A DNA stretch of 64,000 nt from Amoebophrya sp. A120 (lineage: Eukaryota; Protista; Dinoflagellata), in NCBI GenBank assembly GCA_905178155.1, contig CAJINV010000014.1:186001-250000 (forward strand), written 5' to 3'. The translations under genes and the position numbers were made by a program. The first letter of the stretch is position 1. Each line of letters begins with the position of its first letter. This document shows positions 1-63,400 of the stretch, one piece after another. Under the pieces are notes generated by a model. The model worked only from the letters and a program-made list of their open reading frames with translations. It was not told where the DNA came from and ran no database searches.

Positions 1-239
1 GATGCTACCCTTCGACCATGCAAAAACCTGTATTGCAGGAGCAGCAAATTAATAAAGACACGGACATGCTTGCCACCCGGAGCAGGGCACTTCACATGCA
101 GGACAGGCATGGGCCAGCTTTATTTGGAAAAGCTGTGATGCTACTAAAGCTTGCATCACTTCACAGACATTGCAGCGGGTGGTCGTGTACAAGCTGCATG
201 AAAAGCTTCCAGACCAAGACTATATATTTGAATTTGATA
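1..239. mobile_element. Introner family A (partial, left end outside window)
   Basis: Degenerate right TIR TTCCAGACC...TTTGATA. Confidence 0.7.
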
Positions 240-3200
240 GCAGGTCACAGGCAATGGCTTTCTCGTCGCCGTTGCCGATAAATTTCCGACAGGGTGCCCC
301 GCCCGCGCCAGTTTCACCGAAGTTCGCGTCCGGTTATGAATTGCAAAAGTATCGTACTCGTATAAATCTAAATGCATGACAAATTCCCTCCGCATGAGAA
401 AAAAAAAATGTCATGCGGATTTACCTTGGGAAGAAAACTTGTAATGCATGATTGCAAATACCACGAGTACGATACTTTTGCACATGATACCGATTTCACG
501 CCGACAACAAGGTAGGCGTCGTCCACATTGTCCTCATAGGTTCCGTTCACTGCGCGGTCTTGCAGAGGATCCGTCACAATGGACAAATCCTGCTCCCCGT
601 CGGGAGCTGTATGGCCTTCTCAACTGTTACATTCTCAACTGTTACATGGATTTGTCATGCAAAAGCACCATTATCATCCTCACGATCAAGCTGCTCCGCA
701 TGACAAATCTGCGGAGGGCTAAATAGCACTATAATCCGTCCCAAATCTGTAATGCAAAAGGCGCAATCTTCCTCCTTTCACTATTGCCCTTCTTGCATTG
801 CAAATTCGTGTAATAGTTGAGAATGTATACATTTGAGAACGCCATAAGCTGCGCGGCAGGCGTTGAGGTCCGTCCAGGTGAACAGGGAGGCGACGCCGCA
901 TTTTTTATTGTGAGGAAAAATCTCCCCTCCCCATATTGAAAGCGCATCCTTCTGAAAATTTGCAATGCAGATTTGTGACCACAAATCCTGTCTGTCTTGC
1001 AAGAAGGCGAATCCTGAGAGTCCGCCGCATTATGCAGGCGGTTTGTGATGCTCTTGGGCTACTTAAAGCCTAGAGATTTGGCATGCTAGGTGCCCACGTC
1101 AAAGCCTCTGGGCAGCTCAGGCTTGGCATATGCCTGCAGTCCTCTACTGCAGCACAAATCTGATTTGTGTACGGAAATCCAGCAGCAGAAATTTCGTTCT
1201 GATATGTTGGGGAGGTGGGACTTTTCCTTTTGATACTTTTTGGGACTCAAGGTGAGGAGCTGCACCTCCACGACCACCATGGGAGAGCCCGTCAGTTCCA
1301 GCTGCCACCAAGCGCGGGGAAAGGCCGCACCAACCGCGGGCGCGCCGGAAAACATATGAGAGTGCACAACTCCACCCCCTCCCCCTCATTTGTCATGTAA
1401 AACCCCAAATCCAAGTGCTTCTCTGTGGCACTGTTTGCATGACAAATTCTGAAAGCCCAACCAGTACGACACTAGGCACATGAATTTGTCATGCACAGGC
1501 TCCACGTGTGGGTGTGCTGGTGTCTGTATTGCTGTTCATGCAATACAAATGAGGGGGAGGGGGGGTTGTGCATTTTCATAAAACAACGCGCCGGCGCTGA
1601 AGGGGTAGTTGGTGGAGAAATATCCCGAATTCACTTCCTCAATAATTTGCAATACCGTATTCCCAATCTTCTGAATGGTCGGCTGCGACTTTTGGTCCAT
1701 GCCCCTGTTTATGCATTGCAAACATGATACGACGTCCTGGGCCTGGAAGTAGAATGCGAGACTTCTTGTCATGCGAGTTGTCTAGCGCGACACTGAGCTC
1801 TGTCTTGCGTGGACAGCAAGAGCTTCTCTTGTCTGTCATGCGAGAACTACGCTGTTTGTCATGCGGAATACGCAACTACACGGAACCTCCACGAAAAAAT
1901 CTGTCATGCTTAGCGGCGCATGAGAGTATGCTTTTCATCACGACTGATATGCATCACAAGTTTCCAGACCCAACACCAGACATAAGTATTTGCAATGGAT
2001 ACTGTCCGCCGAGAAAACTGCGTTCAGACCCATGTCCACGTAAATTTTTTCCCGTACTACAGTTGCAACTGCGGTTTCTGCATCACAAAACTTGTCTCTC
2101 ATCCTAGTCTGCATCACACATAGCGTTTTACGCTTTAACTTTGCAGAATCTATTGTGATGCATTTTGTGCAACATGTTGTACGGGACCACTAAATTTGTC
2201 TTGCATAACCCACGCTCGAGACGTACGTTGACGGCAGATCATTGCTCTGCGTTGCGGTTCCGCTAAGCGGGGATATTGTGAGGAAAAATCCCCCCACCCC
2301 ATATCAAAACGAAGTTTGTAATGCTGGATTTGCGTACACAAATCAGCTTTCTCTTGCAGAAAGTACTTGGCGGCACTTCCTAAGCCTGTTCGGGTATGCA
2401 GAAGGCTAGCAATAACGCATGGAAGACGGGTTTGCAGTAGCCGAAAGCGCATGACAGATTGGCTTTGGAATGCGCCACATGGCTCCTATTGCCCTATAAG
2501 GAAGACAGAGATGATTTGTGACCACAAATCAGCATCACAAATGTTTATATTTGATATGGGGAGGGGGGATTTATTTTCATGTTGATAGGGGACTTCTTCT
2601 TCTTTTTCTTCCGGGACAGCAGGACTTTTTTCCGGAAGGCCGCAATTTCTTTCTCCGTTGCCTTTTTCCTATCGCTTGCCATCAGCTGCACGTGGTCAGA
2701 CCAGGCGGCAATCGCCTTGGCCCTCTTTGTTGATTCGTATCCAGGAAAAATAACACACCCATCCACATCCAATTTTTCATGAAAAACACGTATAATGCCC
2801 TGCGCCTGTCATGCAAAAAATGGATGGGGATGGGTTTTTTTCTCCGGATAATTCGTCCAATTCCGCTATGCGTTCCCGGAGCACATTCTCCGCTTTCTTT
2901 TTCTCTTCCGCCGTCAGGTGCTTCTCATTCTCCAAGGTCAACGCCACACGACCATCTTATCGCAGGAAAAAACTGTTTCACTGTGATGATTTTGCAAGAT
3001 CTGCATCACAAGTTTGTTACACATGGCACAGAAAATTTGTCATGCGCACTTCCCAAGGGAAAACGCCCTTAAAAATCAAATGTCTTGCATGTTTAGCAAG
3101 ACAAATAGTTTTGTGTTCCATTCCATGCATCACAAGTTCACAGTGAAACAGTTTTTTCGTGGGATACATCTTCCTGTGCCTTCATTTTCTTTTTGAGTTC

Positions 3201-6200
3201 CTCCGCTGCTTCTTCTTCTCTATGCCGTGCCTCGTCCTTATGGATTGCAAAAGTGTCTGGGTCTGAAAGATTGCAACTTGTCATGGTAAATCTGAAGCAT
3301 GAAAAAATCTGTGTTGCATGAGTGCCAAAAGCTGTCCACTTTTGACCAAGTTCGAAGGGAGTTTCTCACGCAGGACAGGCATGGCGGAGACCTCGCAGAG
3401 TCTGCCATGCTAAGTCCCGCATTCCAGACCTCATGGGTCATGGAAAATCTGCATCACAAGTCTACACTTTTCCAGACCCAGACACTTTTGCGCTTGATAG
3501 TCCTGCTCCTCGATCTTCTTTACCAGCTCCACGGCGTCCTCTTGCGCTATGGCGCTCTCAACTGTTACAATCTCAACTGTTACATGAATTCGTCATGCAA
3601 AAACAGCAATAGGGAAAGGGGTGAGCTTGCAAGTCTTGCATCACAAATCTGGCACAGATTTAGATGCTATCTAGCCCTTCGATAATTTGTCATGCTGAGC
3701 AGCTTGATTGTCTTGCGGCTTATGGTCATTTTGCATGACAAATCATGCAACAGTTGAGAATGTAACGTTTGAGAACGCCATATGCGCCTGCGCCAGCTCG
3801 GCCGCCTCTTCCCGAGCGTGCTTCGAGAACGTATCAACTGCAAAAGCGTCTGGGCCTGGAAACTTGTAATGCTAAGAATGAATGATAGACGCACTGCAAT
3901 ACGCAGCTAAGCATGACAATTTTTTTGGCTGCCATGTCTTACGTATTCCGCATGACAAACTGCGTTTCTGCATGACAGGTAAGAGGGCGTTTTCGTGCCT
4001 ATACAACACACATTCTCGAGTCATGCCAGACTAGCATGACAAATCTGGCATTCTTCCAGACCCAGACATTTTGGCATTTGATAGAACGACGCTTTTAACC
4101 AGTCCTCCCCCTCGCGCTCGCCACACAAAAAATCCATTTTGCACGCCGTCTCCGCCTCCTGCTTCTTTCGCTCGGGGGTTTTCTCTATCCTGTGCAAAAG
4201 TATCGCACTCGTATAAGTGCAAGTCTTCGTTCGTTGTGGATCGGCTCTGCCGACCGGGTAACCCAACGCCTTGCATATAAATGACCGACTTAGGCGAACC
4301 CCGTTGCGGGCATACAAATTGGCCGTACGGAAGGGCCCTAAGCGCTACATACATAGTTCACCCTAAGCGCCTACCACTTCGGTCTGGGACCTCGTCTACC
4401 TGATCCTGGGGGTCCACAGCGCACTAGCCCTTTGCTAGCATAAACAGACTGGGTTCTAAAAACTGACTTAACTCCCTCCATCCTTTCAACAGTAAGGCCA
4501 TCATAAAGGTGCGCTAAAAAAGGTTCGGGGCGCTCCGTACGGAAGGGAGCCTTTCGACGCGGCGTACACTCTCCTGGAGAGGTTTACGCGGAACACGGAT
4601 GGGCCGCGCACGCAACTCAGTCGAGGAGGACACACGCTATCCTCAATAACAGAGGCGGTAGTCCCTCACGGCGGCTGGCCTGTCTGAAGACTGTAAGCCC
4701 CACCTCCCATCTTCCCGGTTCGTCAATGACTCGGGCGAGCCATGTTACTTAGACTCCCCGCACATGCAAATATGGGACGGCTGGGGGGGTTTAAAAGGTG
4801 CTCGCGCCGTTCATGATCTACTATAAAAGAAGTCTTGCATTACAAATCTTTTTCTTATCGTAAATCCGCATGACAAATTTTATTTCTCATGCTGAGGAAA
4901 TTTGTAATGCATTTATACGAGTGCGATACTTTTGCAATGCATATTCTCGATGTTGAACTGGAGTTCCAGCTTGGAGGAAGCTCCTGCGGCTGAAGCAGAT
5001 GTTGACCTCGTCCCGCTCTGCCGCTTCATGGAGCTCGCAATGGTCGTGCTGTCCACAGCACCTCCAGTCGCATCTTTGCTGGTCCTCTTGGACCGCGACG
5101 TCTTGGTCGACGTCCCTGCCCCCGCACTTTGTTCACTTTCATCCTTCTGCGTAGAAGTTGTAGTGTCTGTTCTTGCACCAGCTGAAAAATTCTCCGAGAA
5201 GATCTTTTCTGCTACGCCCTTGAAAAAGCCGACAAACTCTCCCACTGCCGAATTCGTTTTCGTTTCATGTTGCGCGGAAGAAGAATGCGTGCCAGAAGTA
5301 GTTCCTCCTTCTTCTTGTAGCTCCTCGAGGACCTCCTGGTGCTCGCCCTGTTCTACTGCTTTCGCGGTGGAGATCATATTATCCGCATGATTTCTACTTC
5401 CTGTCGACGTTTCTTGCTGCACCACGTTCAGCTTCGCTGCAGGAAGTGCGACCTCTACCGATGGTCGACTTACTTTCGCTTTCGCAGGCACATCCAGCAC
5501 CCACTGTGAACTCCAACTGGCGGGATGAGCTTGCCCTACCCGTGGCAGTGCCTACAGTCAACATCTTCTCGTCATCTGTTGTTTTCTCATCCTGCTTTCG
5601 CTTCTCGCTTCGACTTGCTGTGGTCGAGCTTTCTTATCCTGCTCGTTGTCGTGCTTCGTATTTTTATCCGTAGATTTTTTACCTTTCCGGAAAGACTCGG
5701 TCAAAGTTGCAGTTGCACTTCTACCAGGAGCTTCATCTCCGGAGGTGGTGGAGGGCATTTTTGTGGCTTCAATTTCATCTGAAGACGCAGCTGCGGCTTT
5801 TTCTACTGAAGCGTCACTTGTCATTTTTGTGGCAGATGTTGAGGACGCCGCTTTTTCTTGGTCTTTATTCCGAGGCCCATCAACATCGAGGAGCTGAAAG
5901 CGCAGTTGCTGATTTGTGCCCGTGGTGGTCTTGATTATTTTCTTCTTTCTTCGCTGTTTCTTTGACCGAGGCAGAGGTCGTTCTTGGTCGTTTTCTGCTC
6001 TTTGCTGCGGTACTAACGGTTGTAGAGGTAATTCTTCTAATTCGCCTCTTGCCAAGTCTTGTTCGCGACGCTGCTGCTCCTCTGGTGCTGGTGCTGTAAG
6101 TCGTTTATCGGTGCTCTTTGACGTTCCTTCTTCAGCTGAGATCGCAACTTCGGATAGTTGTAACCGTGGAGCAGCAGTGTCACCAGTCGTGCCACTTTGT

Positions 6201-9593: not shown

Positions 9594-12500
9594 TTACACA
9601 ATCGCATCGTCCGTGGTTTTTATTTTCATTTCTTGGTGGCCCCCGCTCCTTTCGGCGTTATTGATAGCGTCAAACGCTGCCGCTTCCTCAGCAAATAAAG
9701 AAGTATCGTAAGGAAAAATCCCCCTCCCCATATCGAAAGCGTACCCGTCTGAAAATTTGTGATGCGCATTTGCGACCTCAAATCCTGTCTGTCTTGCAAG
9801 AAGGCAAGTCCAGAAAGCGTTCCGCATTTTGCAGGCGGTTTGTGATGCTGTTTGGCTTAGAGCATACACGTTTGCCATGCTAGGCGCCTACGTCAAAACC
9901 TCTCGACTGAGGCTTGACATATGCCTGCATTCCTCTACTGCAAGACAAATCTGATTTGTGTATGGAAATCCAGCATCAGAAACTTCGTTTCGATATGGGG
10001 AGGGGGGATTTTTCCTCACAATAAGAAGCACTACTTATTCTATCACTGTTGTCGGTCTCCAAGAAAGCCGAAGCGTCCGCGGAATCTAGTACTCCAGCAC
10101 GGCTCCCGTCCTTTGCGGGTCTCGTGATTTTCAGCAGTGCCCGCAGCTCGGCAGGCGTGAGACTGCCGCTGCGCTCGTATCTGTCCTCACCCATGTGCTT
10201 CAGGCAGGTGTTTACCGTCTATGCGAATGCACAACTGCTCGTCCTCGTGCTCCCCCACCTCGTCGTCCCGCTCAACATTTGTATGTTGGCATGAACAGCA
10301 ACAGAAAACCAGCACAGACATATTAGCTTCTGCATGACAATAACTTTAGCGTAGCAGGCGCGGTGGACAACTGTAGTGCTGTCTGCAAGATTATGCATAG
10401 CTTGCCGAAGAACCAAGTTGTCAACGCGGGCAGTATTGCAATTTTGCAATACAAACAACGGCGGGCATCAGGGGCGGGAGTCGACGCGTTGTGGTCCCTC
10501 ATACCGTCGGGTGTTGATCCGACCGGTTTTGTGCGCCGGGGGTATCTATGAACTGCAAAAGTATCGTACTCGTATAAATGCATCACAAACTTCCTCAGCA
10601 TGAGAGATAAAATTTGTAATGCGGATTTACCTTAAAAGACAGATTTGTAATGCAAGACTTGCATTTATACGAATACGATACTTTTGCACAGGATAGTATC
10701 GAAGAGTACGCGATCGTACTGCAGACAGCCCTATCAACTGCAAAAGTGTCTGGGTCTGGAAGATTGCAACTTATCATGCTGTTTTTGGACTCTAAAAAAA
10801 TTTGTATTGCGTGACCAGCAAGAGGAGTACAGTTTGTGCTACACGGACAGGGCATTTCTCATGCGGGAGGTGCATCAGGAAGCCGTTTAAAGGTCTGCAA
10901 TGCTAGGTCATGCATTACAGACACCACGGGTCATGAGAAATATGCATGACAAGTCTTGCATTCTTCCAGACCCAGACATTTTTACATTTGATAAGCCCTC
11001 CTCTGAGAGTTTGGAGCAGCCGTAGTGAAACTCGTAGTACCCGTATCGAAGAAAAAAACGTTGTTAGTGTAACTTTGTGATGCGCCTCCTGCAAAATGAT
11101 TGCGGCTGTCAACATGCTGGGCATGCACTGCAATGTCCACTTCTCAAGCGCGTTTTTGCGTAGTTTACAGTCTGCGCATGACATAAACAGACTGTGCTAC
11201 TGCGGGCGGGACATTGTGTATCAGGTGAATTGATCAACCCGAAGACGCCGCCCCCCCGGGCCCTATGGACCTGGCACTCCCCACTATACTCCTCACACAA
11301 AACGCCACCAATACAACTATAGGACATAGCCAACCACCCCGGAGCACCAGCACCAGCAACGGGGACGGAAACGGCGCAGCCCACTTCCATGACAGGTTTT
11401 CGCTCTGACAGGTTTTCGCTCTCATGCCAGACGTAATGCTGTTCCTCCATCAAAAAAGTTCTTACATACACCTATCAATTTTTTTCCTGGATAACCCGGC
11501 CGCCTGGTGCGTGGGGCAGCAACAGTACTGCACGTAGCTGATGGCTCGGTCGACCGTTTTCCGATCGTCGGGCTCCAGTTGGTCTAGATTATGGGAGTGT
11601 CAGGATTGAAATCGACAAAGTTGAAATAGTTTGTCATGCATGAAACCGATACCAGTTGGAAGCCCAATTTCCAAGCGGCGCATGACAAATTTCGGCACCG
11701 TCTAAATCCAGTTTGTCATGCTGCTTAGGGACAGAGGGCGTCTTTTGTCATGCTACTTTAGCAGCTCAATCGCAGACCCCAAACAGGCTGACAGTCGGCC
11801 TCACTTGCCATTCCTGCAAGACAAGTCACTTCGCGCCTTGCATTTTATGCATGAGAAATCATTTCAACTTTGACGATTTCAATCCTGACACTTCCATATA
11901 GATTCAGTTTCCGGTACACGGTTTTGTAGCTGGGAAACAGATATCAAATGCAAAAGTGTCTGGGTCTGGAAGAATGAAACTTGTCATGCTGATTTTGGAT
12001 TCTAAAAAAATCTGTATTGCATGAGCAGCAAAGAGAGTCCAAATTTTGCAGCACGGGAAGGGCATTTGTCATGCAGAATAGGCATCAGGAAGCCCTCTAA
12101 AAATCTGTGATGCTAGGGCATGCATCACAGACTTGAGGAGTCATGCGAAAAGTGCATGACAAACCCGGAAATCTTCCAGACCCAGACATTTTTACATTTG
12201 ATAACAGAAACAGATTCTTGGCCACGTCGGCGTAAGCGTACCGGTGCATGGGCTCGCAAACCGCGTCCCGCTCAAACGCACCAAGCGAAGAAGGCTCCGT
12301 GAGCCGGCAGAGCTTCACTTGTTGCGCCATGATGTCGTCGCCGTCGTGCTCTTTCTCGGGGTCTATGTCTTTCAGGTGCTTCTGCGCCTGTCGCGACAGG
12401 GTGTCGTTGCCTTTCGGCGCCACGTCGACCAGGGTGATGGGCGTTCGCTTCTTGGTAATTTTCAGAACCTCCACGTCGTCGTAACAGCCGGAACAGGACA

Positions 12501-18500: not shown

Positions 18501-19043
18501 CAGATGTCGTTTTGCAAGAGCAGCTGGGGATCAATAGCCTTCGCGGCCTCCTGGGAAATATTATCCGGTAGTTTGCAGCTCGTGTCGTTGCTGTTTTGCG
18601 GTAGCAGGCAGTGCCTTCTGCCATTGCCCTCGATGCAGCAACAACCGGTGGCTTCCCACAAGTAATCGTGCTGCTTGTTCGCGATCACCCGCAATATCCA
18701 CTGCAAATATACATTTTTTCTTACCGGCCATCACGTACCAAAACTTTTGTTGGCATTCTTGCATGACAATAAACTTGGTACAACTGAAAGTGAAACAGAA
18801 ACGTGATTCAGAACAGCAACTTGTGGTCTGCTTCTGCGCACGTCCTCTCAGGTTGTAGTGCATAGTTGTGTGTCCGGTATTGTACTAGTAGGGAGGTACT
18901 AAAAAGCTCGTAAATTTGCATTGCATAGCCCCGCCTTCCTCATCGCTCCGCCTTCTGATTTTCTGCTGATGCTTATCTTCAAGCTGAAGAACAGTGTGAG
19001 CCTCAGTGGTTGTAGTTTTCGGGGATTGTATACGTGGCCTCAT
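9594..19043 (-). CDS. Large hypothetical protein with Cys-rich segments, interrupted by 24 introners
   Basis: Hand splicing gives a continuous frame from MRPRIQSP... through GCCCIEG, DSCCCRV, ASCCCDA, YVQYCCPTH to ...TTDDAIV*. One junction near 15924-16101 is only approximately resolved. No family recognised. Confidence 0.75.
9704..10023. mobile_element. Introner family D
   Basis: D-type TIR; TSD AGAAG. Confidence 0.92.
10220..10503. mobile_element. Introner, I-like (diverged)
   Basis: TATG...CACAAC inverted ends; TSD CCGTC. Confidence 0.82.
10547..10695. mobile_element. Introner family B
   Basis: B-type TIR; TSD GTATC. Confidence 0.92.
10732..10993. mobile_element. Introner family A
   Basis: A-type TIR; TSD AGCCC. 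Confidence 0.93.
11044..11493. mobile_element. Introner family J-like, enlarged (450 bp)
   Basis: TATC.A.GAAAAAAA inverted ends; TSD ACCCG. Confidence 0.85.
11590..11898. mobile_element. Introner family F
   Basis: TIR TATGG.AGTGTCAGGATTGAAATCG.CAAAGTTGAAAT; TSD TAGAT. Confidence 0.93.
11942..12203. mobile_element. Introner family A
   Basis: A-type TIR; TSD ACAGA. Confidence 0.93.
12527..12788. mobile_element. Introner family A
   Basis: A-type TIR; TSD AGTGT. Confidence 0.93.
13223..13331. mobile_element. Introner family E
   Basis: E-type TIR; TSD ACACC. Confidence 0.93.
13494..13757. mobile_element. Introner family A
   Basis: A-type TIR; TSD CACCT. Confidence 0.93.
13891..14154. mobile_element. 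Introner family H
   Basis: TIR TATG.ATTGCA..AATATGTCTGG; TSD CTTGT. Confidence 0.9.
14260..14618. mobile_element. Introner family F
   Basis: F-type TIR; TSD GTGCC. Confidence 0.92.
14744..14984. mobile_element. Introner family H
   Basis: TIR TGCAAATATGT.TGGGTCTGGAAAC; ends TAT/GTA; TSD CTGGA/CTGCA. Confidence 0.88.
15062..15206. mobile_element. Introner family B
   Basis: B-type TIR; TSD AAATT/AAACT. Confidence 0.9.
15280..15583. mobile_element. Introner family G
   Basis: TIR TATCC.G.G.AAA..ACGTC.CCAC; TSD CGTGC/CGCGC. Confidence 0.85.
15648..15878. mobile_element. Introner family I
   Basis: I-type ends; TSD TCTTG/CCTCG; reading frame restored on removal. Confidence 0.82.
15924..16101. 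mobile_element. Degenerate introner
   Basis: Left end TATCCACAATAAAA; internal GCATGACAA; right boundary approximate. Confidence 0.5.
16476..16646. mobile_element. Introner family K (almost entirely a foldback)
   Basis: Long TIR of about 70 bp, TATC.CACAGAAAAAAGCTGGCAGGTCA.AT.TGTAATGC...; TSD TTGTT. Confidence 0.93.
16682..16836. mobile_element. Introner family B (diverged)
   Basis: B-like ends; TSD TCAGC/TCACT; reading frame restored on removal. Confidence 0.8.
16916..17024. mobile_element. Introner family E
   Basis: Near-perfect TIR of about 30 bp; TSD GAGCA. Confidence 0.93.
17228..17515. mobile_element. Introner family C (diverged)
   Basis: TATGG..TTCTCAA ends; TSD CAGCT. Confidence 0.85.
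17639..17878. mobile_element. Introner family J
   Basis: AAGAAAAAAACTGT inverted ends, TAT...ACA; TSD TCCTC. Confidence 0.87.
18063..18418. mobile_element. Introner family D
   Basis: D-type TIR (left end TCT); TSD ACAGC. Confidence 0.87.
18695..18927. mobile_element. Diverged introner (H/B-like ends)
   Basis: TATCCACTGCAAAT / ATTTGCATTGCATA; TSD no longer matches, but removal of element plus 5 nt restores the frame. Confidence 0.65.
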
Positions 19044-50403: not shown

Positions 50404-52047
50404 CTAGTTGCTATCCCCGGCCGCGGACGAAACCGCCACGGATCCCGGCCAGCTTCGCGGCTCAGGCTCGCACGACGGCGCGCCGCTGCTCGTGTCGCCC
50501 GGTGCAAGCGCGAGAGGTGCCGCATGCTGGTCCTCGTGGGCTGCAAGCAACATGCTTCCTGCCTCATGTTCTACCGGTCCTCCAGGCCCTCGTGTGCTGG
50601 GGGGCTGGTGCGCGGCATCGACTTCGGCCTGTCGTGCCACCGGCTTGTGCGGCGGAAGATCTTCAAACGGGGGTCTCGAGCAAGATGAATTTCTCCTCCG
50701 ATTAATTCGACTCGCGGGGGCTTCTTGCTGACCGCCGCTTGGAACAAAACCGCGGGCTCCTGCCGGCGAAGTAGCAGATAAACCCAAGCCCCAGGGGTTC
50801 ACGTGCAGCGGCAGCATTCCAGCGCCAGCAGGAACAAGTTCGTGGTACGAGGAAGATGCAGGCTGGTGGCCCCGGTGCTGCTGCGGCCCGGAAGATGTTG
50901 ATGATGGGACATTTTGCTCTGCTGGACCGGCGACGCTGAGGGCTGCGAGACTCGCGAGCGTGCTGTTCCAATTGGGTCCGGGCGTGGGCCGGCTGTCCTC
51001 GTGCGGGTAGTTCAGATCTACCTCGTGGCAACTGTAGTACTGCTGGGGCGAAAGTAGATGCACTTGGCCTCCAGCGCCTCCTGAGACACCATCACCTACA
51101 ACACCTCCCGGCGCACTTAATATAGAAGCACCTCCGGCGCCGACGAGGTGGTCTGGAGTCACAGCCCCCTGGTTTGCCGCGAGAAACTGGTCTACGGGGG
51201 CGGTGTAGGAGCCCTCGACGTGGTCGTCCGGCGAACTGCCGAACCCGTAGAGGTAGTTTGTGCCCGCAGACAGGCTTCTCAGCTCCCCCAGGTGAACGAT
51301 ACCGGGCCGGGGAACGGGCGCGATCAGGGGAAGGGCGCTTTCTTGCGGTTGCTGCAGGACTGAGTGGCTGCTCTCTGTCTCTTCTCGTTCCGGCGTCTCC
51401 TCCGGAGGACACGAAATTGCTTGTGTTTGTTGACGTGGTCGTCGTCCCATGCTGGGATCCCTAATCTGCAGCTCTGGAAGATAATGTTGCGCACGGTCAG
51501 TGCGGTCATCTCTGCGGAGCTTTCTTCGGCTGTCGAAGGTTAAAGACCGCTGTGGCGACGTGGTCCTTCTTCCTGTTCTTGCGAGAACATGATCATGATC
51601 TGTCGGCTCTGGTTCCCCACCATGGCCATGGGGGTGCGACGTCGCCCGCGGCGCGTTGTAACTGTTGTGGTCCTCCGCTTCTGCTCGAATTAATTCCAGT
51701 ATTCCTTGTTCCCACGACGCAGCTTGTTCCGCAGGCCCCGCAGTCGACGACGTACTGTGATCCTGATTTCCCGCGGCATCCAGGGGACTTGTGTTGCTGC
51801 GTCGCAACAGCCGGGTGCTGCCGCGCCGGTGGTCGGACGTAGTCCTCGTGGTTCCCCCACATGAAGATGAAGAACTGGCTGCCCCTATCAAAATGAAAAG
51901 TGCCCATATTACTCTTCCAGAGATGATTTTTGGCGTGTTTGATGTATGTGAAAAACTTTCATGATGAATGAGAATGTCCAAGAAATCCAAAAATTGCACT
52001 CCTATAAAAACCCTGGCTGCGGCGTTCTGAGAGTGGCGGGACGACAC
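50404..52047 (-). CDS. Hypothetical low-complexity protein or exon
   Basis: 547-aa ORF on the coding strand; no domain recognised. Confidence 0.5.
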   Translation of the reverse strand: MSSRHSQNAAARVFIGVQFLDFLDILIHHESFSHTSNTPKIISGRVIWALFILIGAASSSSSCGGTTRTTSDHRRGSTRLLRRSNTSPLDAAGNQDHSTSSTAGPAEQAASWEQGILELIRAEAEDHNSYNAPRATSHPHGHGGEPEPTDHDHVLARTGRRTTSPQRSLTFDSRRKLRRDDRTDRAQHYLPELQIRDPSMGRRPRQQTQAISCPPEETPEREETESSHSVLQQPQESALPLIAPVPRPGIVHLGELRSLSAGTNYLYGFGSSPDDHVEGSYTAPVDQFLAANQGAVTPDHLVGAGGASILSAPGGVVGDGVSGGAGGQVHLLSPQQYYSCHEVDLNYPHEDSRPTPGPNWNSTLASLAALSVAGPAEQNVPSSTSSGPQQHRGHQPASSSYHELVPAGAGMLPLHVNPWGLGLSATSPAGARGFVPSGGQQEAPASRINRRRNSSCSRPPFEDLPPHKPVARQAEVDAAHQPPSTRGPGGPVEHEAGSMLLAAHEDQHAAPLALAPGDTSSGAPSCEPEPRSWPGSVAVSSAAGDSN

Positions 52048-52618
52048 TTTTCATTTTGATAGCCCCAACCGCGCGGGGCGGGGTGGTGCTGCGGAACTTC
52101 TGGTAGGCCGCGCCAAGCTGATGCACGAGCGGGTGCGGTGCAGGTGGGGAACGTTGCAAGTGCTCCTCTACTTCTTGAGATCGCCGCCCACAGCGGTTCT
52201 TGCAATAAGACCTCCCTGTGGTCCCTGCTGGGGCGGGAGACTCTACTGTAGCGCCCGCCGCTCCTGGTCCTCGCCGGTCGAAATGATGATGCTCCGGGTT
52301 CTGGTCGTGGTCCAGGTGTTGAGCGAAATGGTGGTCTTTCGAGGCGGGAAGAACTCCTTCTGTGGCAAGATGGTCTACTCTCCTTGGACTGCCGCTCGCG
52401 CAGCTGCTCCCTTGCTTTTCGTCTTCACTAGCGACGTGTCGGCCGCGTGCGCCCGGGCTACTGCGCCGCCGGCTCTGCCGATGCTGTCTCGCGAAGGAGG
52501 AGCTCACGCCTATCGGCGTCGGCTGGAATCTATGCACCATTGCAAAAGTATTCATTGCGATACGTAGAAATTGGATGACAAAATCTTGCAAAATGAAGAG
52601 CGGAGCTTGCCATTCAGC

Positions 52619-54319
52619 TTAAGAAGGCTGATCCGCATATGCCGTAGAAGTGCGAGAATTACTACAAGTAGTACGAGACTTTTGATGCAGTGGATACACA
52701 CTGTTGCTCGCCCGGCTGGTCCCCATCCCCAGTATGGGAATGTCGCCCAGCGGGATGCCCAGGGTCGTATTGATGCACAGGGGAGGGAAGGATTGCCGCA
52801 GCGGTCCGTCGCGAGCGTAATTTTCATCCGGGAGTCGAGATGCATGATCGCTATGCTGCTCGTCTTCCCGCGTATGCTCGTCCTCGTCGTTCGAGTCGTT
52901 ACACGCCGGCTGCCGGGGAAAGTGGTCTATTAATTCTTCTCCTGATTCTCTATAAGCCGCTCCGAAAGTAGCAGCTGCGCCTCCACCTCCTCCGGCGGGC
53001 GCGGGGCTGATGCTGATTGCACAGCCACGGTCCATTTCGTCGTGGTCGTCCTGTTCTTGCGATTGCAACAGGTCTACCGGCTGCTCCAGCACTTCCAGCG
53101 TATGCGACCGAGAAAACTCCGAGGCAGGCGACTCCGCGCGTGTTCTTCGCGCAGAGATAATAATACGTTGCTTGTTTCCGTACTGTGAATGTGGTTGTGA
53201 TTCCAGTTGTGCTTGCGGCTCGTGAGAAGATAGTCGTCCACCTCGAGGTGCAGCAGGTAAAGCCCCGGCACCAGAATGTACCGTCGCACCCGCTGCGCCT
53301 TGCCTGGTCCCGCCCCCACGCTCACTACGTTGATTAAGACTGCTGAAGCTCGGTCTAGAACTGCTACTCGCACTACCTGCCTGTTGCTGACCTCCCGTAG
53401 TACTGCTGGCACTGTGTGCGCCGGCCGCACTGGCGCCGCCGGGCCTGCCATGCGGCCGCGACGTCGAAAAGGAGGGTCTATCGAGTACGACCCTACTAGA
53501 AGTACAACTACTTGCGTCACCTCCACCAGCTGCAGCACCGCCGCCGTCTAGAGTGGAAGATGAAGACGGAGGTGCGCCAAAGGAAGGAAAGTAGCCGCAG
53601 GGCTCCTTGGTTTTTATTTCTCTAGTACTGTTGAGGTCGTGAAGATTATGCTGTGCAGCAGGTCCAGCTCCCCGGGTAGTTCCAGGTCCACCACCACCGC
53701 CGCCGGCTTGCAACGCTACCGTGTGTCTGCTACCGGTCGTTGCCCCGCCGCCGGCGAAGTAGGTTCCCCGATGCGCCGGAAGACCTGCGGAAGCAGCAGC
53801 CTCACTACCTTCCCCCTCCGGGGCGGGAATGTGGTCGACGGGGTGTGGCGTCTGGCTGAGGTCTTCATACGGTGACGGCACCACCGGTGACTGTAACGCT
53901 GCCAGCCCGGCGGCGCCACGGCGGCCTGCAGTAGCCCCAGGAATCAAGTCTTCCGGCTGTATGCTGGCGTTGAGTCCCGGCACGGGCGTCAGTCGACAGG
54001 TCGTCGGCACGGAGGAGCTGTCCTCGGATGAAAGATGAGTTTGGTCTGTCGTGGTGGAAATCGGTATGGGCGGCACACAGACGAGATCCTGCCTGCCACC
54101 AGCAGCAGGAGGAGCAGCAGCACTTCGGTACTGCTGTGCTCCTACTGAAGATGTTGAAACATGAAACATGCTGTCGGCCGAGCTGCCGACCACCGCCTGC
54201 GAGCCTGCAGCCCCAACTGCTGTGCCCGGAACAAGGAGTTCCTGGTCCGGGTCCCGCAGCCGATCCAAAATCTCCGACCAAGCGTGGGCTTGCTGACTTA
54301 TGGAAGTTGTGGTGCACAA
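52619..54319 (-). CDS. Hypothetical Ser/Gly/Ala-rich protein or exon
   Basis: 566-aa ORF; no domain recognised. Confidence 0.5.
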   Translation of the reverse strand: MCTTTSISQQAHAWSEILDRLRDPDQELLVPGTAVGAAGSQAVVGSSADSMFHVSTSSVGAQQYRSAAAPPAAGGRQDLVCVPPIPISTTTDQTHLSSEDSSSVPTTCRLTPVPGLNASIQPEDLIPGATAGRRGAAGLAALQSPVVPSPYEDLSQTPHPVDHIPAPEGEGSEAAASAGLPAHRGTYFAGGGATTGSRHTVALQAGGGGGGPGTTRGAGPAAQHNLHDLNSTREIKTKEPCGYFPSFGAPPSSSSTLDGGGAAAGGGDASSCTSSRVVLDRPSFSTSRPHGRPGGASAAGAHSASSTTGGQQQAGSASSSSRPSFSSLNQRSERGGGTRQGAAGATVHSGAGALPAAPRGGRLSSHEPQAQLESQPHSQYGNKQRIIISARRTRAESPASEFSRSHTLEVLEQPVDLLQSQEQDDHDEMDRGCAISISPAPAGGGGGAAATFGAAYRESGEELIDHFPRQPACNDSNDEDEHTREDEQHSDHASRLPDENYARDGPLRQSFPPLCINTTLGIPLGDIPILGMGTSRASNSVYPLHQKSRTTCSNSRTSTAYADQPS

Positions 54320-54501
54320 CTACTACTAGTACCTACTACCCCTTGGATGTAGTTCTAGTTCCCTGAACATCTACATCTTGCCGACATCTTCTATAAGATG
54401 AACAGAAACACTAATACTGCACCTGCCACGTGCCAAATTTATTTTCCGCAGAGAGTGAGTACTTCTAGCACTGTAGTTTGGAGCAGTCGTCCCGGAACTT
54501 G

Positions 54502-55170
54502 TCATGCGAGCGGCGCTAAAGGAAAAGCATCCAGTAGCGAGTTTGGATTTGGTACTTTGCATGACGTGACCAGAATAGAGGGGCGGGAGGACGAGGAGTT
54601 GTGTACTCTCAACATCATATGACTGTGCGACGAGTCCCGCCCGCCGGGTCGCGAACAATGCTGCTCCTGCTCATGGTGGTGTTGTTGAGCGGCCGAATTG
54701 GCGGCCCCAGCCCCTCCGGCAACCACCCGGACTGAAGAGCCTCCGCCGCTGCCGCACGGTCCACCCACCCCCGGAGGCCCGCTACTTCCACCCACTGGGA
54801 TCATCATCCCAAATTCGCCCGACGTGACCGACCCCGGTGTGCTCCGCGCTGGGTTGCTCGCACTTACCTGTCGGGAGATGTGGTCCTGCAAAGTTGTAGA
54901 ACTGGGCTGCATGGCAGGCAGCGATTGCCCGGTGCTGGAACTAGTTCCGGCTGAAACTAGTACAGCAGCAGTGGCGCAGCTGCCCCCTCCGACCAGTACG
55001 GAGTTATTCACGACAAACAGCGCCGGTGGCGGGGTCGCCGTGCTAGACCGGGCGAGCTGCGTGGGCGTGTCCGGCGTCATGGTGCCGGAGGGCGGTGACC
55101 CGGTGGCACTCGTCGTCCCAAGGGTGAGGCTCCGACCTGGAACAAGCATGTTATTTCGGTTTACTTTCAT
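54502..55170 (-). CDS. Hypothetical low-complexity protein or exon
   Basis: 222-aa ORF. Confidence 0.4.
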   Translation of the reverse strand: MKVNRNNMLVPGRSLTLGTTSATGSPPSGTMTPDTPTQLARSSTATPPPALFVVNNSVLVGGGSCATAAVLVSAGTSSSTGQSLPAMQPSSTTLQDHISRQVSASNPARSTPGSVTSGEFGMMIPVGGSSGPPGVGGPCGSGGGSSVRVVAGGAGAANSAAQQHHHEQEQHCSRPGGRDSSHSHMMLRVHNSSSSRPSILVTSCKVPNPNSLLDAFPLAPLA

Positions 55171-55209
55171 TCTTGTCCGTCGATGAACATGAAAGCTACA
55201 AATCTACAT

Positions 55210-56348
55210 TCAAAAACAACAACACAGAAAATAAATGCTGCCTCGCTGGAAAAGTGGTAGAAATGGCTCAAGGTAGTACAAAGATGATGAAATAACTGCT
55301 ATACCAGCTGCGCTCAAGGTGGAGGAGATCATTCCGCGCTCCGCCAGAATACTAAGCCCCCGACTCCCTTGTCGCGCTTTCGGCCGGGTCTGCTGTGTTG
55401 TGCCTACAGTACTACCCGGCGGTGGAGGTGGTGGACCGCTCGCGCTCGCCGTGCTCGGCGGCGGCGCGTTCGTTTCAGCTGGTGCTCCCGGCAACATTGG
55501 TGGAGCAGGATTGTCGATGTTACTACCACTTCCACATCCACCGCCGGGATTGGAAGAGGCAGCGCCGGAAGCCGAACTGCTTGTGGTCGTTGGGGGCGGG
55601 CCACCATGATTACCACCTGCGGCCCGGTGCAGCTGTAAACTGATGCCATTTGTCGTGGTAGCGAGTTGTACTAGAAGCAGCAGTATCGAATGTAAAAGTG
55701 TCTGGGTCTGGAAGGTTGGAACTTGTGATGCTGTCTCTGGATTCTAAAAAAAATTTGCATTGCATGACCAGCAACAGAACTCCAGTTTGTGCTACCCGGA
55801 GAGGGCATTTCTCATCCATGCGGTAGAGGCATCACACAGGCCTCTAAAAATCTGTCATGCTAGAGCATGCATCACAGACATCATGAGTCTTTCAAAATAT
55901 GCATGACGAACCTTGCAAGCTTCCAGGCCCAGAAATTTTTACATTTGATAAGCAGCTGCACGAGAACAACCCCGGCAGAGGTCGTGGTGGTACAACACAG
56001 GGTGGATAGAAGGCAGCGTATGGATGTGTCAGAGTTGAAATCGACAAAGTTGAAATAGTAATTTGTCATGCATAAAATGCGACACAAAGACTGACTCTAT
56101 TGCTGAAGGCGCAAGGGAGGCAGATTCTAGTGCTGGTAAGGGTCAAGAATTGGGCTGCTGACTAGCATGACAGGGAGCAGCCATCTTGCCCTAAACAGCA
56201 TAACAGACTTGCTTCAGACGAGGCCAGGAAAATTTGTCATGCGCCACTTGGGAACTGGGTTCCAACTGGCATCCATTTTATGCGTGACAAATTATTTCAA
56301 CTTTGTCGATTTCAACTCTGACACATCCATACAGCGCATGCAGGCCAT
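55210..56348 (-). CDS. Hypothetical protein with signal-peptide-like N-terminus
   Basis: Removing introners 56019-56331 and 55684-55950 gives MACMRCLLSTLCCTTTTSAGVVLVQLLLVQLATT..., in frame with ORF 55210-55497. It may continue into downstream ORFs. Confidence 0.6.
55684..55950. mobile_element. Introner family A
   Basis: A-type TIR; TSD AGCAG. Confidence 0.92.
56019..56331. mobile_element. Introner family F
   Basis: Perfect TIR of about 39 bp; TSD CAGCG. Confidence 0.95.
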
Positions 56349-59290: not shown

Positions 59291-59309
59291 ATCGCGAGAA
59301 TCGAGACTC

Positions 59310-60415: not shown

Positions 60416-63400
60416 TCACACCTCCTCAATCTGTAAATCGTGACTTTCCCTTTCATACTCCGGTGCAGGTCGTTTGGATTTGGAGCTGCTTGGCGTGAGC
60501 TGAAACGCCTGGTCTGCTTGCAGATCCGTTGTTCCCCCGGCCCCGCTTTTCGAATTGGATGGACTCGAGCTGTGCAATTGCTTTGTCAGCACACCGTAGT
60601 GGGCTTGCAGTGCATCAGAAACGTCGCCGAAGTGGTTCGGGTTCTCGAGGTACCTGGAGATGCGGTTGTTTCAGGTTTATTTCTGTCCTGCTCGGGTAGT
60701 TGTTCTCGCTCTAGGTGACCAGGGGACTCATCTCATTCTGTTACTCATGTCGAAAAAGATCATCAAGTCTGTATGTTTTATATGCATGCCCCCAGCGACG
60801 TTGTTGCGTGCAAAGAAAAGAACGCCGCAGCTACAGTGCTACGAGTGATGAAGTTCTGTGCGATTGAAGAAATTACAACTCGTCCATACATCCTCTTTAA
60901 TCAGTATCAGCCCTAGAAGTTGCTGTCGCTGAGCTGTGCATGTGCTACTTCTACAACAACAGCCTAATCCTAAAAATCTACAAATCGTACCAGTCCACCG
61001 TTCTTTGCAGCCCCTCTTCCCACGTGGTGTTTACTTTCCAGCCCAGCGCTTCCAGCTTCACACTGGTGGTGAGGTAGCTCTTGTCGTTATCCTGAGTAAA
61101 AACGTCCCCACACCAGAGTCAGGATGGAGATTTTGCAACACGAGCCGAGGAGTTTTGTGAGTCACGCATGACAAGCTGCACTCCGCAGTGTAGTGCAGGT
61201 TAGCAAGTGCAGCCGCATCAAAGATTCATCTGCTCATCCTGTTCACAGCATCACAAATTCCAAAAGACAATTGGAAATGGCTCTCATGGGGCTGCGCATT
61301 ACAAGTCTTGCTGTCTTTGCAAATCTGCATTACAACTCTGGTGTGGGGACGGTTTTTACTCAGGATAGTCGTTGAAAGCCCGGTCTTTGACGTACTGAAA
61401 GTACCGCTTGTCTTATGACAGTGCACAACTCCACTCCCCCTCGTTTGTCATGCAAAATACCAAATCCAGTTCCAGGCTGTGCCTCTTGGCACTGCTTGCA
61501 TGACAAACTCCGGAAGGAGCCCAAACAGTACTACACTCCTGCGCAAAGTTCTCATGCAAAACCAGCATTCTTTCTGACGCTTGTACTGCCGTCCATGCTA
61601 TACAAATGAGGGGGGGAAGGAGTTGTGCACCGTCATATGTCTTGACTGTCAACGTTCGCGATGTCGCCCTGCTCCTTTCCGAGAGCGACCAGGACGCTTT
61701 TCAGCACTTCCAGGTTGCTATCAAGTCGAAAAATGTCTGGGTTTGGAAGACTCGTGCTGTTTTTGCATGACACAGAAGGTCTGGCATGGAAGCTCTAGCG
61801 TCACAGGTCTTGAGAAGCTTCTGCAATGCCGAATCCGCATGACAAATCCCCCACTTTGGTGAGAAATAGTGGGTAGCTTGAGCTTTTGCTACCTATGCAT
61901 GACAGATTTATCTGTGTTCTGAAATGCGCATCACAAGTGGTTCTTCTTCCGGACCCAGACATATTTGCAATCCATAGTTGCTTCGTTCCTGCGGTTGCGA
62001 GATGTTGTAGGTCTCGAACGTTGTGCCCTTGCGCATGATCACATCAAAAGCGGAGACAACGTCGTCGATGAACAGGAAGCTCCGCGTGTTCGTCCCATCC
62101 CCGTGGACTATGCACCGCAAAAGCAATTATCGGATTATATCCCACCAGAGCACAAAGTTTTTTTTTTTTAATGCCGTCCTTTTCCTCACTTTATCCCCCA
62201 GCTTGATGCTGACATATCTTATAAGCATAACCGCAATTATTTCTTCCATGGGCTACCACTAAGCATAAGCAACTTGCGGCAAATTTCATTTCTGTTGTGT
62301 ACAGAATTAGAATGCAAATGCAACGAACAGCAACGTTGGCGTTGCTATGATTCACACGATGTGGATAATCGCGATTTAGACTTTTGTATTGCATATGCAC
62401 CGGGAAAGGCATATTTCGGTTAAACAGCGCGATGGATTTTGGGATCAACTTTTCGGGCCACTGCCGAGGACCGAAAACATTGTTAGGCCTGATTCGGTTT
62501 GTTCCTTTTCAAATTTCAAGCATCGCCCTGCTCCATTCACGGTAAGAATGGGGCGGAAAAAACTCATCAGCGCCACAACATGATTGGAGCGACCTTCTGC
62601 CATTATATGCATTACTCATAATTGTGTCACCCCATAGTGGTTTATCAATTTGATAAAGAACAGTCATAAATTTCTAGTAGAGCCCCCGCAGGCAAATAAA
62701 ACTCAGTATACCTGACGACGATGCTGGGGAGGCGAAAGCTGAAACTGAACCCGCGCACCAGGCACTCTGCGGCGGCTTTGCTCGCCGAGTAGGGGTTGGT
62801 TGGGAGCATCTGGTCGTTCTCGCTCACCCGTCGGTTTTCCTCGAAGCTGAGGTCGCCATAGACCTCGTCAGTCGACACGTGAATGAACCTTTCCAGCGTC
62901 GGGCAGCGAATCGCGGCTTCCAGCAAGATATGCATTGCAAAAGTATCGTACTCGTAGTAATTGCTGTCGTGCATGACAAATCTCGCTTTTTAGGAAAAAT
63001 AGCATTACAAATTGCATTTTTCTTCTTGAAAAAATGCGTGATGCAATTTATACTAGTACGATACTTTTGCAATGCATACAAGACGTGGGTCCCATTCACG
63101 TTGGTCCGCACAAACTCGTCGGACGCCGTGAAAGATCGATCCACGTGGGACAGCGCGGCGAAGTGGAACACGCAGTCGAACCGGTGCTGCTCGAACAAGG
63201 AGCGGACCAGATTTCGGTCGCAAATGTCCCCGCGAACGAACCAGTAGTTCGCGCACTCGTCTGCTAGGTCCTTTATATTTTTCGGGTTTCCACAGTAGTC
63301 CAGCTTGTCCAGGTTGACAAATTTCGTGCGGGGGTACGTAGTCACGAGCCATCGCAGGACATTCGACCCGATGAACCCGCAGCCGCCCGTGAAAAGCACA

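What the first reader, a model, noticed from the sequence alone, without database searches (positions are those of the whole stretch)
1..63078. Multi-family system of TAT...ATA transposon-introns with 5-bp TSDs, excised precisely without GT-AG
Seen: about 61 elements in about 12 TIR families follow one rule, 5-bp TSD + TAT...ATA + 5-bp TSD, with no TSD consensus. Deleting the element plus exactly one TSD copy rebuilds intact DHODH (1998 nt) and dehydratase (1347 nt) reading frames, including catalytic motifs. For most copies no register within the TSD gives GT-AG (e.g. sense TSDs TCTTG, GCAAC, AGACA, ACGAC). Established: non-canonical introns with inverted and direct repeats have been reported in Amoebophrya genomes, and as far as I recall their excision mechanism is unresolved. 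Inference: the host has a general mechanism that removes these elements, either by structure-guided RNA splicing or by programmed DNA excision.
Basis: partly seen in the sequence, partly recalled or inferred. Interest (0 to 1): 0.92.

Follow-up and report, generated by a model that had tools for sequence, protein, structure and literature searches.

The report
Amoebophrya hairpin introns, one fixed cut
These are the already published transposon-derived introns of the marine parasite Amoebophrya A120, which are missing from its transcript-based gene models although most have no GT-AG signals; the added point is that they appear to be cut at one fixed offset from their hairpin ends, likely by a relaxed spliceosome, which makes the unsolved mechanism easier to test.

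Summary
The window has 66 TAT...ATA inverted-repeat elements, 48 with an exact 5-bp TSD; shuffles give none. It comes from Amoebophrya sp. A120, and these are the introners published by Farhat et al. 2021, so the class is known. All 33 introns of two public transcript-based gene models equal element + 5 nt. RNA-like contigs match 23 junctions by exact length, while DNA-like contigs keep the elements.

Not found in my literature searches: ten introns with mismatched TSDs all fit one cut, N|TAT...ATA-NNNN| (register 4 versus 3 rests on one intron). TSD identity is not needed, and an available GT-AG one register away is not used. U at intron position +2 is unchanged in 258 of 258. A nested element is removed before its host element.

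Best reading: RNA-level removal (about 0.87), most likely a relaxed U2 spliceosome positioned by the hairpin (0.5). Rivals: Euglena-like non-spliceosomal excision (0.3), DNA excision (0.05). Nothing here tests the chemistry. The scan earlier noted a similar element in Prorocentrum (e1-7693921, unchecked).

The parts
335..4943 (-). 13 elements in exons of an uncharacterised gene: 335-489, 610-846, 906-1235, 1355-1580, 1710-2001, 2033-2207, 2274-2587, 2738-2850, 2958-3166, 3239-3499, 3548-3782, 3832-4083, 4186-4943 (the last holds a nested insert)
   Evidence: removing all 13 (+5 each) gives 569 open codons from 5551 to 220
9597..20225 (-). Host gene of public A120 protein P0001 (1194 aa, no Pfam family), 25 introns, each element + 5 nt
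9704..14618 (-). 12 elements with exact TSD in the P0001 gene: 9704-10023, 10220-10503, 10547-10695, 10732-10993, 11044-11493, 11590-11898, 11942-12203, 12527-12788, 13223-13331, 13494-13757, 13891-14154, 14260-14618
   Evidence: joint over 12527-12788 skips exactly 267 = 262+5 in an RNA-like contig
14744..15206 (-). Elements 14744-14984 and 15062-15206, TSD mismatch at sense position 2 (synonymous, uninformative for register)
15280..15583 (-). Element with TSD mismatch at position 3: at least 3 upstream TSD bases are kept
15648..15878 (-). Element with TSD mismatches at 2 and 5; registers 2-4 allowed; GT-AG at register 4
15924..16132 (-). Element with TSD mismatches at 1 and 5; register at most 4
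   Evidence: RNA-like contig piece ends at 16134
16476..18418 (-). Elements 16476-16646, 16682-16836, 16916-17024, 17228-17515, 17639-17878, 18063-18418. At 16682-16836 a GT-AG exists at register 1 but the gene model excludes it (registers 2-5)
18695..18927 (-). Element whose TSD has decayed (1 of 5 bases match); the only cut compatible with the gene model is intron 18691-18928 = register 4
   Evidence: length confirmed in sum by RNA-like contig, 915 of 915 nt
18977..19922 (-). Large element with a nested high-copy repeat, decayed sense 3' end and decayed TSD (2 of 5 match); register 3-4. The end at 18977 was assigned after seeing the gene model (first guess 18974)
20991..25107 (-). DHODH gene, public A120 protein P0002 (665 aa, Pfam DHO_dh), 8 introns, each element + 5 nt
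21175..21764 (-). Elements 21175-21324 and 21469-21764 (exact TSD)
21783..22071 (-). Older element, TSD mismatches at 1 and 5, GT-AG at register 4; retained in a low-depth RNA-like contig
22127..22505 (-). Outer element of a nested pair (annotated intron 384 nt; register at least 3); found through the gene model
22387..22496 (-). Inner element inserted near the sense 5' end of the outer one; removed in RNA-like contigs that still hold the outer element
   Evidence: X6 record 20, X3 record 12; 272 of 272 nt
22619..23756 (-). Elements 22619-22800 (mismatch at 2: register at least 2), 22849-23095, 23138-23391, 23472-23756 (mismatch at 1: register at least 1)
27605..29529 (-). Elements 27605-27866, 28331-29053 (with a nested GG...CC inverted-repeat insert and 9-bp duplication), 29278-29529
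32995..34175 (-). Elements 32995-33236, 33279-33429, 33934-34175
40767..42035 (-). Elements 40767-41043, 41164-41308, 41723-42035; removal gives a 765-codon open frame
51886..56331 (-). Elements 51886-52061, 52531-52696, 54299-54619, 55684-55950, 56019-56331
60416..63546 (-). NAD-dependent sugar dehydratase gene, 448 aa: elements 61088-61367, 61414-61637, 61719-61976, 62109-62395, 62929-63078 plus GT-AG introns 62489-62711 and 60654-60990

Best explanation
These are the non-coding, inverted-repeat transposons of Amoebophrya sp. A120 that sit in coding exons with a 5-bp target duplication and are absent, together with exactly 5 extra bases, from transcript-based gene models and RNA-like contigs; they are likely removed from the pre-mRNA at one fixed register (one base before the leading UAU, four bases after the closing AUA), probably by a U2-type spliceosome that still reads U at +2 but lets the terminal hairpin place both ends instead of G+1 and AG. 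Shown: the structure, the 5-nt rule, the host, absence from processed sequence, presence in DNA-like contigs, compatibility of all ten informative introns with register 4. Inferred: that removal is at RNA level, that the register is the same genome-wide, that the hairpin sets it. Untested: that the spliceosome is the catalyst, and any branch point. Because the cut removes element + 5 nt in either orientation, any new insertion restores the exon exactly; afterwards the intronic TSD bases can drift.
For: Host and precision: window exons match A120 proteins at 99-100%; 33 of 33 annotated introns in two genes equal element + 5; those models were built by BLAT of assembled transcripts without a GT-AG rule (Farhat section 25). 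RNA-like contigs: one joint skips 267 = 262+5; exon sums 915 of 915 nt over 8 introns, 746 of 746 over 9, 272 of 272 over 5. Register: 10 of 10 informative introns allow register 4, 9 of 10 allow 3, 5 of 10 allow 5, 1 of 10 allows 0. RNA level: five DNA-like contigs at depth 40-47 run unbroken through whole elements; an RNA-like contig lacks five elements, including the inner nested one, yet keeps the outer. Spliceosome hint: in 258 oriented elements the U at intron +2 is never changed, against 8 and 9 changes at the other two terminal U positions; the first two bases of the sense 5' end are broken once, the mirror bases at the 3' end 13 times, p about 0.002, post hoc. The two elements with GT-AG at register 4 and a GT-AG dehydratase intron with the same 5-bp repeat geometry form a continuum with ordinary introns. 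Farhat found 83 of 89 spliceosomal proteins and U2, U4, U5, U6 but no U1 in A120, and A25 non-canonical introns also have T at +2 (Table S4). A U2 spliceosome removes transposon-derived non-canonical introns in Fritillaria (passages). Hairpin: ends predicted paired in 54 of 62 folded elements.
Against: Register 4 versus 3 rests on one intron (18695-18927) and on a gene model, not on reads that I saw. X3 and X6 are only guessed to be RNA and X1's kind is not on record; X1 may be the source sample, its joint table was saturated, and contigs drop rare variants. No enrichment of G at +1 or AG at the 3' end: GT-AG at register 4 in 7 of 192 and 2 of 66; position-5 mismatches put G upstream in only 2 of 5, where a spliceosome with residual preference might show more. 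The shared internal motif GCATNAC is no commoner near the sense 3' end than in mirror position (145 vs 158 of 258), so no branch point was found. Eight of 62 elements, including the outer nested one even after inner removal, have weak predicted terminal pairing. Part of the end asymmetry could be strand-biased mutation. Table S4 ends may reflect an aligner's tie-break towards GT-AG. Farhat's Fig. 3 legend calls the splice sites variable relative to the hairpin. The geometry resembles Euglena's non-conventional introns, thought to be non-spliceosomal.
Confidence: 0.5

Rival explanations
1. Same RNA-level fixed cut, but made by a non-spliceosomal machine (endonuclease plus ligase, or another hairpin-reading enzyme), convergent with Euglena non-conventional introns; the 1-nt and 4-nt overhangs would be a staggered cut on the hairpin.
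For: No G+1 or AG preference; both orientations are tolerated equally (40 vs 39 asymmetric elements); a GT-AG one register away is not used; U1 snRNA was not found in A120; Euglena introns have an offset hairpin, N3CDG...CHG N5-6, and one gene's introns were reported to leave as circles (passages of PMC12501133).
Against: Invariant U at +2 on the sense 5' end only is a spliceosomal trait (established knowledge); continuum with GT-AG introns of the same geometry; several introns lack a good predicted terminal hairpin; no candidate enzyme is in hand.
Confidence: 0.3
2. Spliceosomal removal guided mainly by a protein that binds the element ends or the shared internal motif (for example a domesticated transposase DNA/RNA-binding domain standing in for U1), with hairpin pairing secondary.
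For: One motif, GCATNAC or its reverse, occurs in 58 of 66 elements across families, 9.9 per kb against 0.43 per kb outside; some elements are removed despite weak predicted pairing; Farhat proposed a novel subunit.
Against: The motif is symmetric to the two ends and explained as a transposase site; no such protein was found (no long coding frame inside any paired element).
Confidence: 0.12
3. Programmed DNA excision: the elements are cut from the DNA of the transcribing stage and repaired to one TSD copy.
For: Transposon ends and precise restoration fit a domesticated-transposase route in principle; DNA of each life stage was not examined here.
Against: DNA-like contigs keep the elements at single-copy depth; elements with 1 of 5 or 2 of 5 TSD identity are removed at the same offset, which homology-guided repair would not give; the register depends on gene orientation (1 nt upstream, 4 nt downstream in the sense direction), which a DNA cut on a symmetric element would not know; part-processed nested form.
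Confidence: 0.05
4. Artefact: joined forms arise by reverse-transcriptase template switching across the hairpin at the direct repeats, and the genes are broken.
For: Hairpin plus short direct repeat is the known substrate for such switching (own knowledge).
Against: 25 elements in one gene and 8 in DHODH all restore frame; DHODH junction residues match outside homologues ([14 protein letters not shown] in P0002 and P0005); elements without a direct repeat are removed precisely.
Confidence: 0.03

Closest known systems
Introner elements / non-canonical introns of Amoebophrya sp. A120 (Farhat et al. 2021, PMC7789003; read: abstract, sections 10, 11, 12, 16, 25, supplement parts 2-3 as text; figures not visible)
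   Same: Same organism and loci; inverted repeats starting TAT + 7 nt + AAA; 5-bp direct repeats (Fig. S19 legend); about 240 nt; many families; RNA-seq supported; mechanism unresolved.
   Different: The paper gives direct repeats of 3-5 nt and calls the splice position variable or unknown (Fig. 3 legend); here the duplication is strictly 5 bp and one register fits all informative introns. The Fig. S23 legend ('1-5 nucleotides') may already show this offset; I could not see the figure.
Fritillaria borealis non-canonical introns (passages of PMC13326754 and PMC11282704; Henriet 2019 not read)
   Same: MITE-like origin with TIR and TSD, non-GT-AG ends, precise removal; U2 spliceosome reported necessary there.
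   Different: Fritillaria ends keep a consensus (AG-AC, AG-AT, YAY triplets) and U1 is conserved; here the first base and last four bases are free and U1 was not found.
Euglenid non-conventional introns (passages of PMC12501133, PMC11282704)
   Same: Terminal hairpin set back from both splice sites, longer 3' overhang, slidable direct repeats, suspected MITE origin, unknown machinery.
   Different: Signature N3CDG...CHG N5-6|R versus N-TAT...ATA-N4; unrelated lineage; circular excised RNA reported there, untested here.
IS3EU/GingerRoot DNA transposons (passages of PMC10045372)
   Same: TA..TA termini with occasional TG..CA, short TIRs.
   Different: TSD usually 6 bp there, 5 bp here (0 of 279 with 6); no transposase found in this study.
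Canonical introners (Micromonas, Aureococcus, Symbiodiniaceae; passages of PMC9860276, PMC12130899)
   Same: DNA transposons that become introns on insertion with no change in mRNA length.
   Different: Those carry or co-opt GY and AG from the element or TSD; these need neither.

Membership tests
Amoebophrya A120 introner elements (Farhat 2021) | Located in the A120 genome | tested here: met
   Exon translations hit A120 proteins at 99% and 100% identity
Amoebophrya A120 introner elements (Farhat 2021) | Inverted repeat starting TAT, seven looser bases, then at least three A | tested here: met
   59 of 66 with TAT...ATA; A at positions 11-13 in 85-95% of 192 related elements; definition
Amoebophrya A120 introner elements (Farhat 2021) | Direct repeat of 3-5 nt at the exon-intron borders | tested here: met
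   48 of 66 exact 5 bp; 211 of 279 in related loci
Amoebophrya A120 introner elements (Farhat 2021) | Removed from transcripts, non-canonical ends, repeated in families | tested here: met
   33 of 33 annotated introns; RNA-like contigs (RNA status guessed); 8 multi-copy families
U2-type spliceosomal intron | GT (or GC) at the 5' end | tested here: not met
   First base free, T at +2 fixed; GT in 62 of 192 at register 4, as background G predicts
U2-type spliceosomal intron | AG at the 3' end | tested here: not met
   AG in 20 of 192 at register 4; GT-AG in 2 of 66
U2-type spliceosomal intron | Branch-point adenosine and lariat | tested here: inconclusive
   Internal motif symmetric, 145 vs 158 of 258; A at -7 changed once in 258 is only a hint; no lariat reads examined
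U2-type spliceosomal intron | Dependence on U2/U5/U6 snRNPs | not testable with these tools
   Needs inhibition or knock-down
Euglenid non-conventional intron | N3CDG...CHG N5-6|R signature | tested here: not met
   Ends are N-TAT...ATA-N4; signature
Euglenid non-conventional intron | Terminal hairpin offset from both splice sites | tested here: met
   Predicted pairing of ends in 54 of 62; offsets 1 and 4
Euglenid non-conventional intron | Excised as full circle, no lariat | not testable with these tools
   Needs RNase R / debranching assays
IS3EU/GingerRoot transposons | TA..TA termini | tested here: met
   definition
IS3EU/GingerRoot transposons | 6-bp TSD | tested here: not met
   0 of 279 with 6 bp, 211 with 5 bp
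IS3EU/GingerRoot transposons | Cognate DDE transposase | tested here: inconclusive
   No autonomous copy among 8 long end-pairs listed in window and loci; whole genome not held
MITE (non-autonomous TIR transposon) | Short, non-coding, TIR, fixed TSD, many copies | tested here: met
   109-946 nt, mostly 145-360; (repeat depth)
Programmed DNA elimination (IES-like) | Element-free alleles in somatic or stage-specific DNA | tested here: inconclusive
   One DNA-like run keeps the elements in unbroken contigs; stage unknown, rare forms not visible

The most novel reading that the evidence does not exclude
A120 has a dedicated, non-spliceosomal RNA machine that measures from the paired UAU/AUA ends (one base 5', four bases 3') and so turns any insertion of this whole transposon group, in either orientation and at any sequence, into a perfect intron, resolving nested copies inside-out: a second, independent origin of Euglena-like hairpin-ruler splicing.
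Probability: 0.3. Interest if true: 0.88.

Novelty: already known. Interest (0 to 1): 0.5.

Why it matters
More than 60% of A120's introns are non-canonical and how they are removed has been open since 2021. The class itself is not new. A single register turns 'no splice signal' into a precise substrate: 5' end N-U-A-U, 3' end A-U-A-N-N-N-N. That says where to look for a branch point, which bases to mutate in a reporter and how to re-annotate tens of thousands of borders, and it separates spliceosomal from non-spliceosomal and DNA routes. It would also explain why these transposons can fill coding exons at little cost, and allows a direct comparison with Euglena and Fritillaria.

Tried and rejected
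No whole genome was held, so no genome-wide count, snRNA inspection or transposase search. Run X9 (raw RNA reads under the same species label) barely mapped (85 reads, nearly all partial): no evidence either way; no RNA holder was listed on record. A read-level view of the mismatched-TSD junctions at 14630-19960 was not obtained, so the register rests on gene models and contig piece ends. A prospective test of register 4 on locus L074, written down beforehand, was inconclusive: the only hit was an unspliced gene call on the same contig, so the relation of the metagenome loci to strain A120 is also unknown; none overlaps unique window sequence. No relative of the first gene was found. Rejected: drift of TSDs towards GT-AG (suggested by the window, not seen in loci); the internal motif as a branch point; register 1 with a YAN 3' end (fits 3 of 10); an autonomous element in L008 (the long frame looks like a host exon on the sense strand; not scanned against Pfam). 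Viral contigs: 0 matches to the end pattern. Rfam: 0 matches. In-frame stops by register in 49 mismatched locus elements: none at register 4, one at 3, one at 1, two at 0: weak. Searches's end counts held two coordinate slips corrected; one search's '273' holds a stray +1 (272). 87 of 279 locus elements were dropped from oriented counts for unclear strand.

Full report
OBSERVATION. A scan for N5-TAT...ATA-N5 with a terminal inverted-repeat score of 10 or more gave 42 hits in the window and 0 in each of five block shuffles. Adding copies with one changed end or TSD gives 66 elements, covering about 17.6 kb: 59 of 66 with perfect ends, 48 with an exact TSD, 44 with both. All lie in open frames of minus-strand genes, or inside another element. 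Removing each element plus five bases restores long frames, while plus four, six or none does not. GT-AG is available in any register for 5 of 66. Family number depends on threshold: 8 multi-copy families and 21 singletons.

IDENTITY. Two exons hit proteins of Amoebophrya sp. A120 at 99% and 100% identity. Farhat et al. 2021 (PMC7789003; abstract, sections 10, 11, 12, 16, 25 and supplement text read, figures not visible) describe in A120 non-canonical introns with inverted repeats starting with TAT, seven looser bases and three or more A, direct repeats of 3-5 nt (5 bp in the Fig. S19 legend), 29,850 repeated copies in 1954 families, RNA-seq support, no U1 snRNA found, and no mechanism. The finding is therefore this published class. 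Passages of later papers treat the mechanism as open or do not address it.

PRECISION OF REMOVAL. The public models, built from assembled transcripts without a GT-AG rule, have 25 and 8 introns here, and all 33 equal element + 5 nt; two element ends (18977, and the outer element 22127-22505) were fixed only after seeing the models. In the one read lay obtained (window 9600-24700), contigs of runs guessed to be RNA are joined: one joint skips 267 = 262+5, and the exon sums between shown pieces match prediction exactly, 915 of 915 nt over 8 introns, 746 of 746 over 9, 272 of 272 over 5. Run X1, kind not on record but even in depth over exons, elements and spacers, has contigs at depth 40-47 that run through whole elements with 0-3 differences; it may be the source sample, its joint list was saturated by repeats, and contigs hide rare variants. 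Run X9 barely mapped.

THE CUT POSITION. With identical TSDs six registers are equivalent; copies whose TSDs differ break the tie. Ten introns are informative at protein level, allowing registers (upstream TSD bases kept) 1-5, 2-5, 3-5, 1-4, 3-4, 4 only, 2-5, 0-4, 2-4 and 3-5. All ten allow 4, nine allow 3, five allow 5, three allow 1. Contig piece ends independently give 3-4 for 18977-19922, 1-4 for 15924-16132 and at least 1 for 23472-23756. So the intron reads N-TAT...ATA-NNNN; the choice of 4 over 3 rests on one intron, 18695-18927. Two consequences follow. The TSD does not guide the cut, because copies with 1 of 5 and 2 of 5 matching bases are cut at the same offset. A nearby GT-AG does not capture it: at 16682-16836 the GT-AG at register 1 is excluded by the model. 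Farhat's Table S4 lists nine predominant A120 end pairs, all with T second, as register 4 predicts, but an aligner's preference could contribute. Their Fig. 3 legend calls the border variable or unknown; the Fig. S23 legend ('1-5 nucleotides') may show the same offsets and I could not see it. Searches found no paper stating a fixed register; the library lacks most subscription journals, and Roy 2023 and Henriet 2019 were not read. A prospective test on locus L074 was inconclusive.

WIDER SAMPLE. One metagenome scan returned 148 stretches, 147 held, of about 460 estimated; their strain is unknown. Of 279 elements picked by inverted repeats alone, 211 have an exact 5-bp TSD, 1 a 4-bp, 0 a 6-bp one. 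A codon model (51 of 51 correct on the window, partly its training data) oriented 192 of them. TSD composition matches exon background; at register 4 GT occurs in 62, AG in 20, both in 7 of 192. Elements with unlike ends lie either way round, 40 versus 39. Over 258 oriented elements the three terminal bases change unevenly: sense 5' end 0, 1 and 8 changes; mirror positions at the 3' end 5, 9 and 1. U at intron +2 is thus never changed while the other two terminal U positions change 8 and 9 times; strand-biased mutation could explain part of the rest. This is post hoc and modest in size. A shared internal motif is 23-fold enriched in elements but symmetric, so it gives no branch-point evidence. 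Predicted end pairing is good in 54 of 62 elements and poor in 8.

NESTING. In DHODH a young element (22387-22496) sits near the 5' end of an older one (22127-22505). RNA-like contigs hold a form lacking the inner element and the four upstream elements but keeping the outer (depth 15 against 46-65 for the main contigs in X3; also in X6), and the DNA-like contig still has the inner element. This suggests stepwise, inside-out removal. The outer element has no predicted terminal hairpin even after inner removal, which may be why it lags, or may count against the hairpin model.

MECHANISM. Shown: structure, host, 5-nt rule, absence from processed sequence, compatibility with one register. Inferred: removal from RNA (about 0.87 summed over RNA-level models with the artefact and DNA readings set aside), because DNA-like contigs keep the elements, the cut is oriented by transcription and ignores TSD homology, and part-processed forms exist. 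For the catalyst I favour a U2-type spliceosome that keeps U+2 but has dropped G+1 and the 3' AG, the hairpin fixing the distance (0.5): the conserved +2 U, the continuum with GT-AG introns of the same geometry (15648-15878, 21783-22071, dehydratase 62489-62711), the near-complete spliceosome and the Fritillaria precedent point that way. That G+1 and the last G of an intron pair with each other during 3' site docking, so could be lost together, is recalled knowledge. A Euglena-like non-spliceosomal route (0.3) fits the offset hairpin and the lack of any GT or AG bias. A protein-guided spliceosomal variant (0.12), DNA excision (0.05) and a reverse-transcriptase artefact (0.03) follow. As DNA transposons the elements are MITE-like with IS3EU-type TA..TA ends but a 5-bp rather than 6-bp TSD; no transposase was found in the window or loci, and Gozashti 2025 report an A120 family with an integrase-related frame (passage).

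VERDICT. Real, not an artefact, and already known as a class. The added value is a testable geometry for an open question, based on ten introns in two genes. Earlier scan notes on a Prorocentrum element and a sea-urchin IS3EU-type element were seen late, not checked, and did not set the score. Interest 0.5.

Noticed in passing
window 28582-29010, inside element 28331-29053: A second kind of inverted-repeat insert with GG...CC ends and a 9-bp duplication, resembling Merlin or Mutator-type MITEs (labels recalled), nested in an introner.
   Followed up: partly
window about 4225-4830, inside element 4186-4943: About 600-bp insert flanked by a 7-bp direct repeat, no long frame; possibly a truncated retroelement.
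   Followed up: partly
window about 19060-19800, inside element 18977-19922: High-copy repeat (summed depth about 21,000 in run X1) nested in an intron that is still removed whole; 65 reads of run X9 share a loose end at 19700.
   Followed up: no
window 11044-11493: Element longer than its relatives, apparently with an internal insert; annotated as one 455-nt intron.
   Followed up: no
whole window: All 66 elements lie in coding exons or inside another element; none was found in the spacers between genes, and several long exons (5558-8536, 46555-49008) have none. Exon targeting or loss elsewhere was not tested.
   Followed up: no
all elements: Motif GCATNAC or its reverse in 58 of 66 elements of unrelated families, about 23-fold enriched; likely a shared transposase-binding site, implying one mobilising enzyme group.
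   Followed up: partly
window 58099-58782 and 59112-59466: Two degenerate tandem arrays (19-24-bp and 14-15-bp units) after a GC-rich stretch at 57300-58080, between genes.
   Followed up: no
whole window: Every gene examined is on the minus strand, fitting the unidirectional clusters reported for Amoebophrya (abstract).
   Followed up: no
window 46555-49008: 817-codon uninterrupted frame whose C-terminal part looks like a SpoU/TrmH RNA methyltransferase split by long low-complexity inserts (by eye, label recalled).
   Followed up: no
L001-L147: The same element families occur in contigs of one public assembly prefix (first 80 listed); no A120 gene model matched the one exon tested, so they may be another strain, useful for empty-site comparison.
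   Followed up: partly
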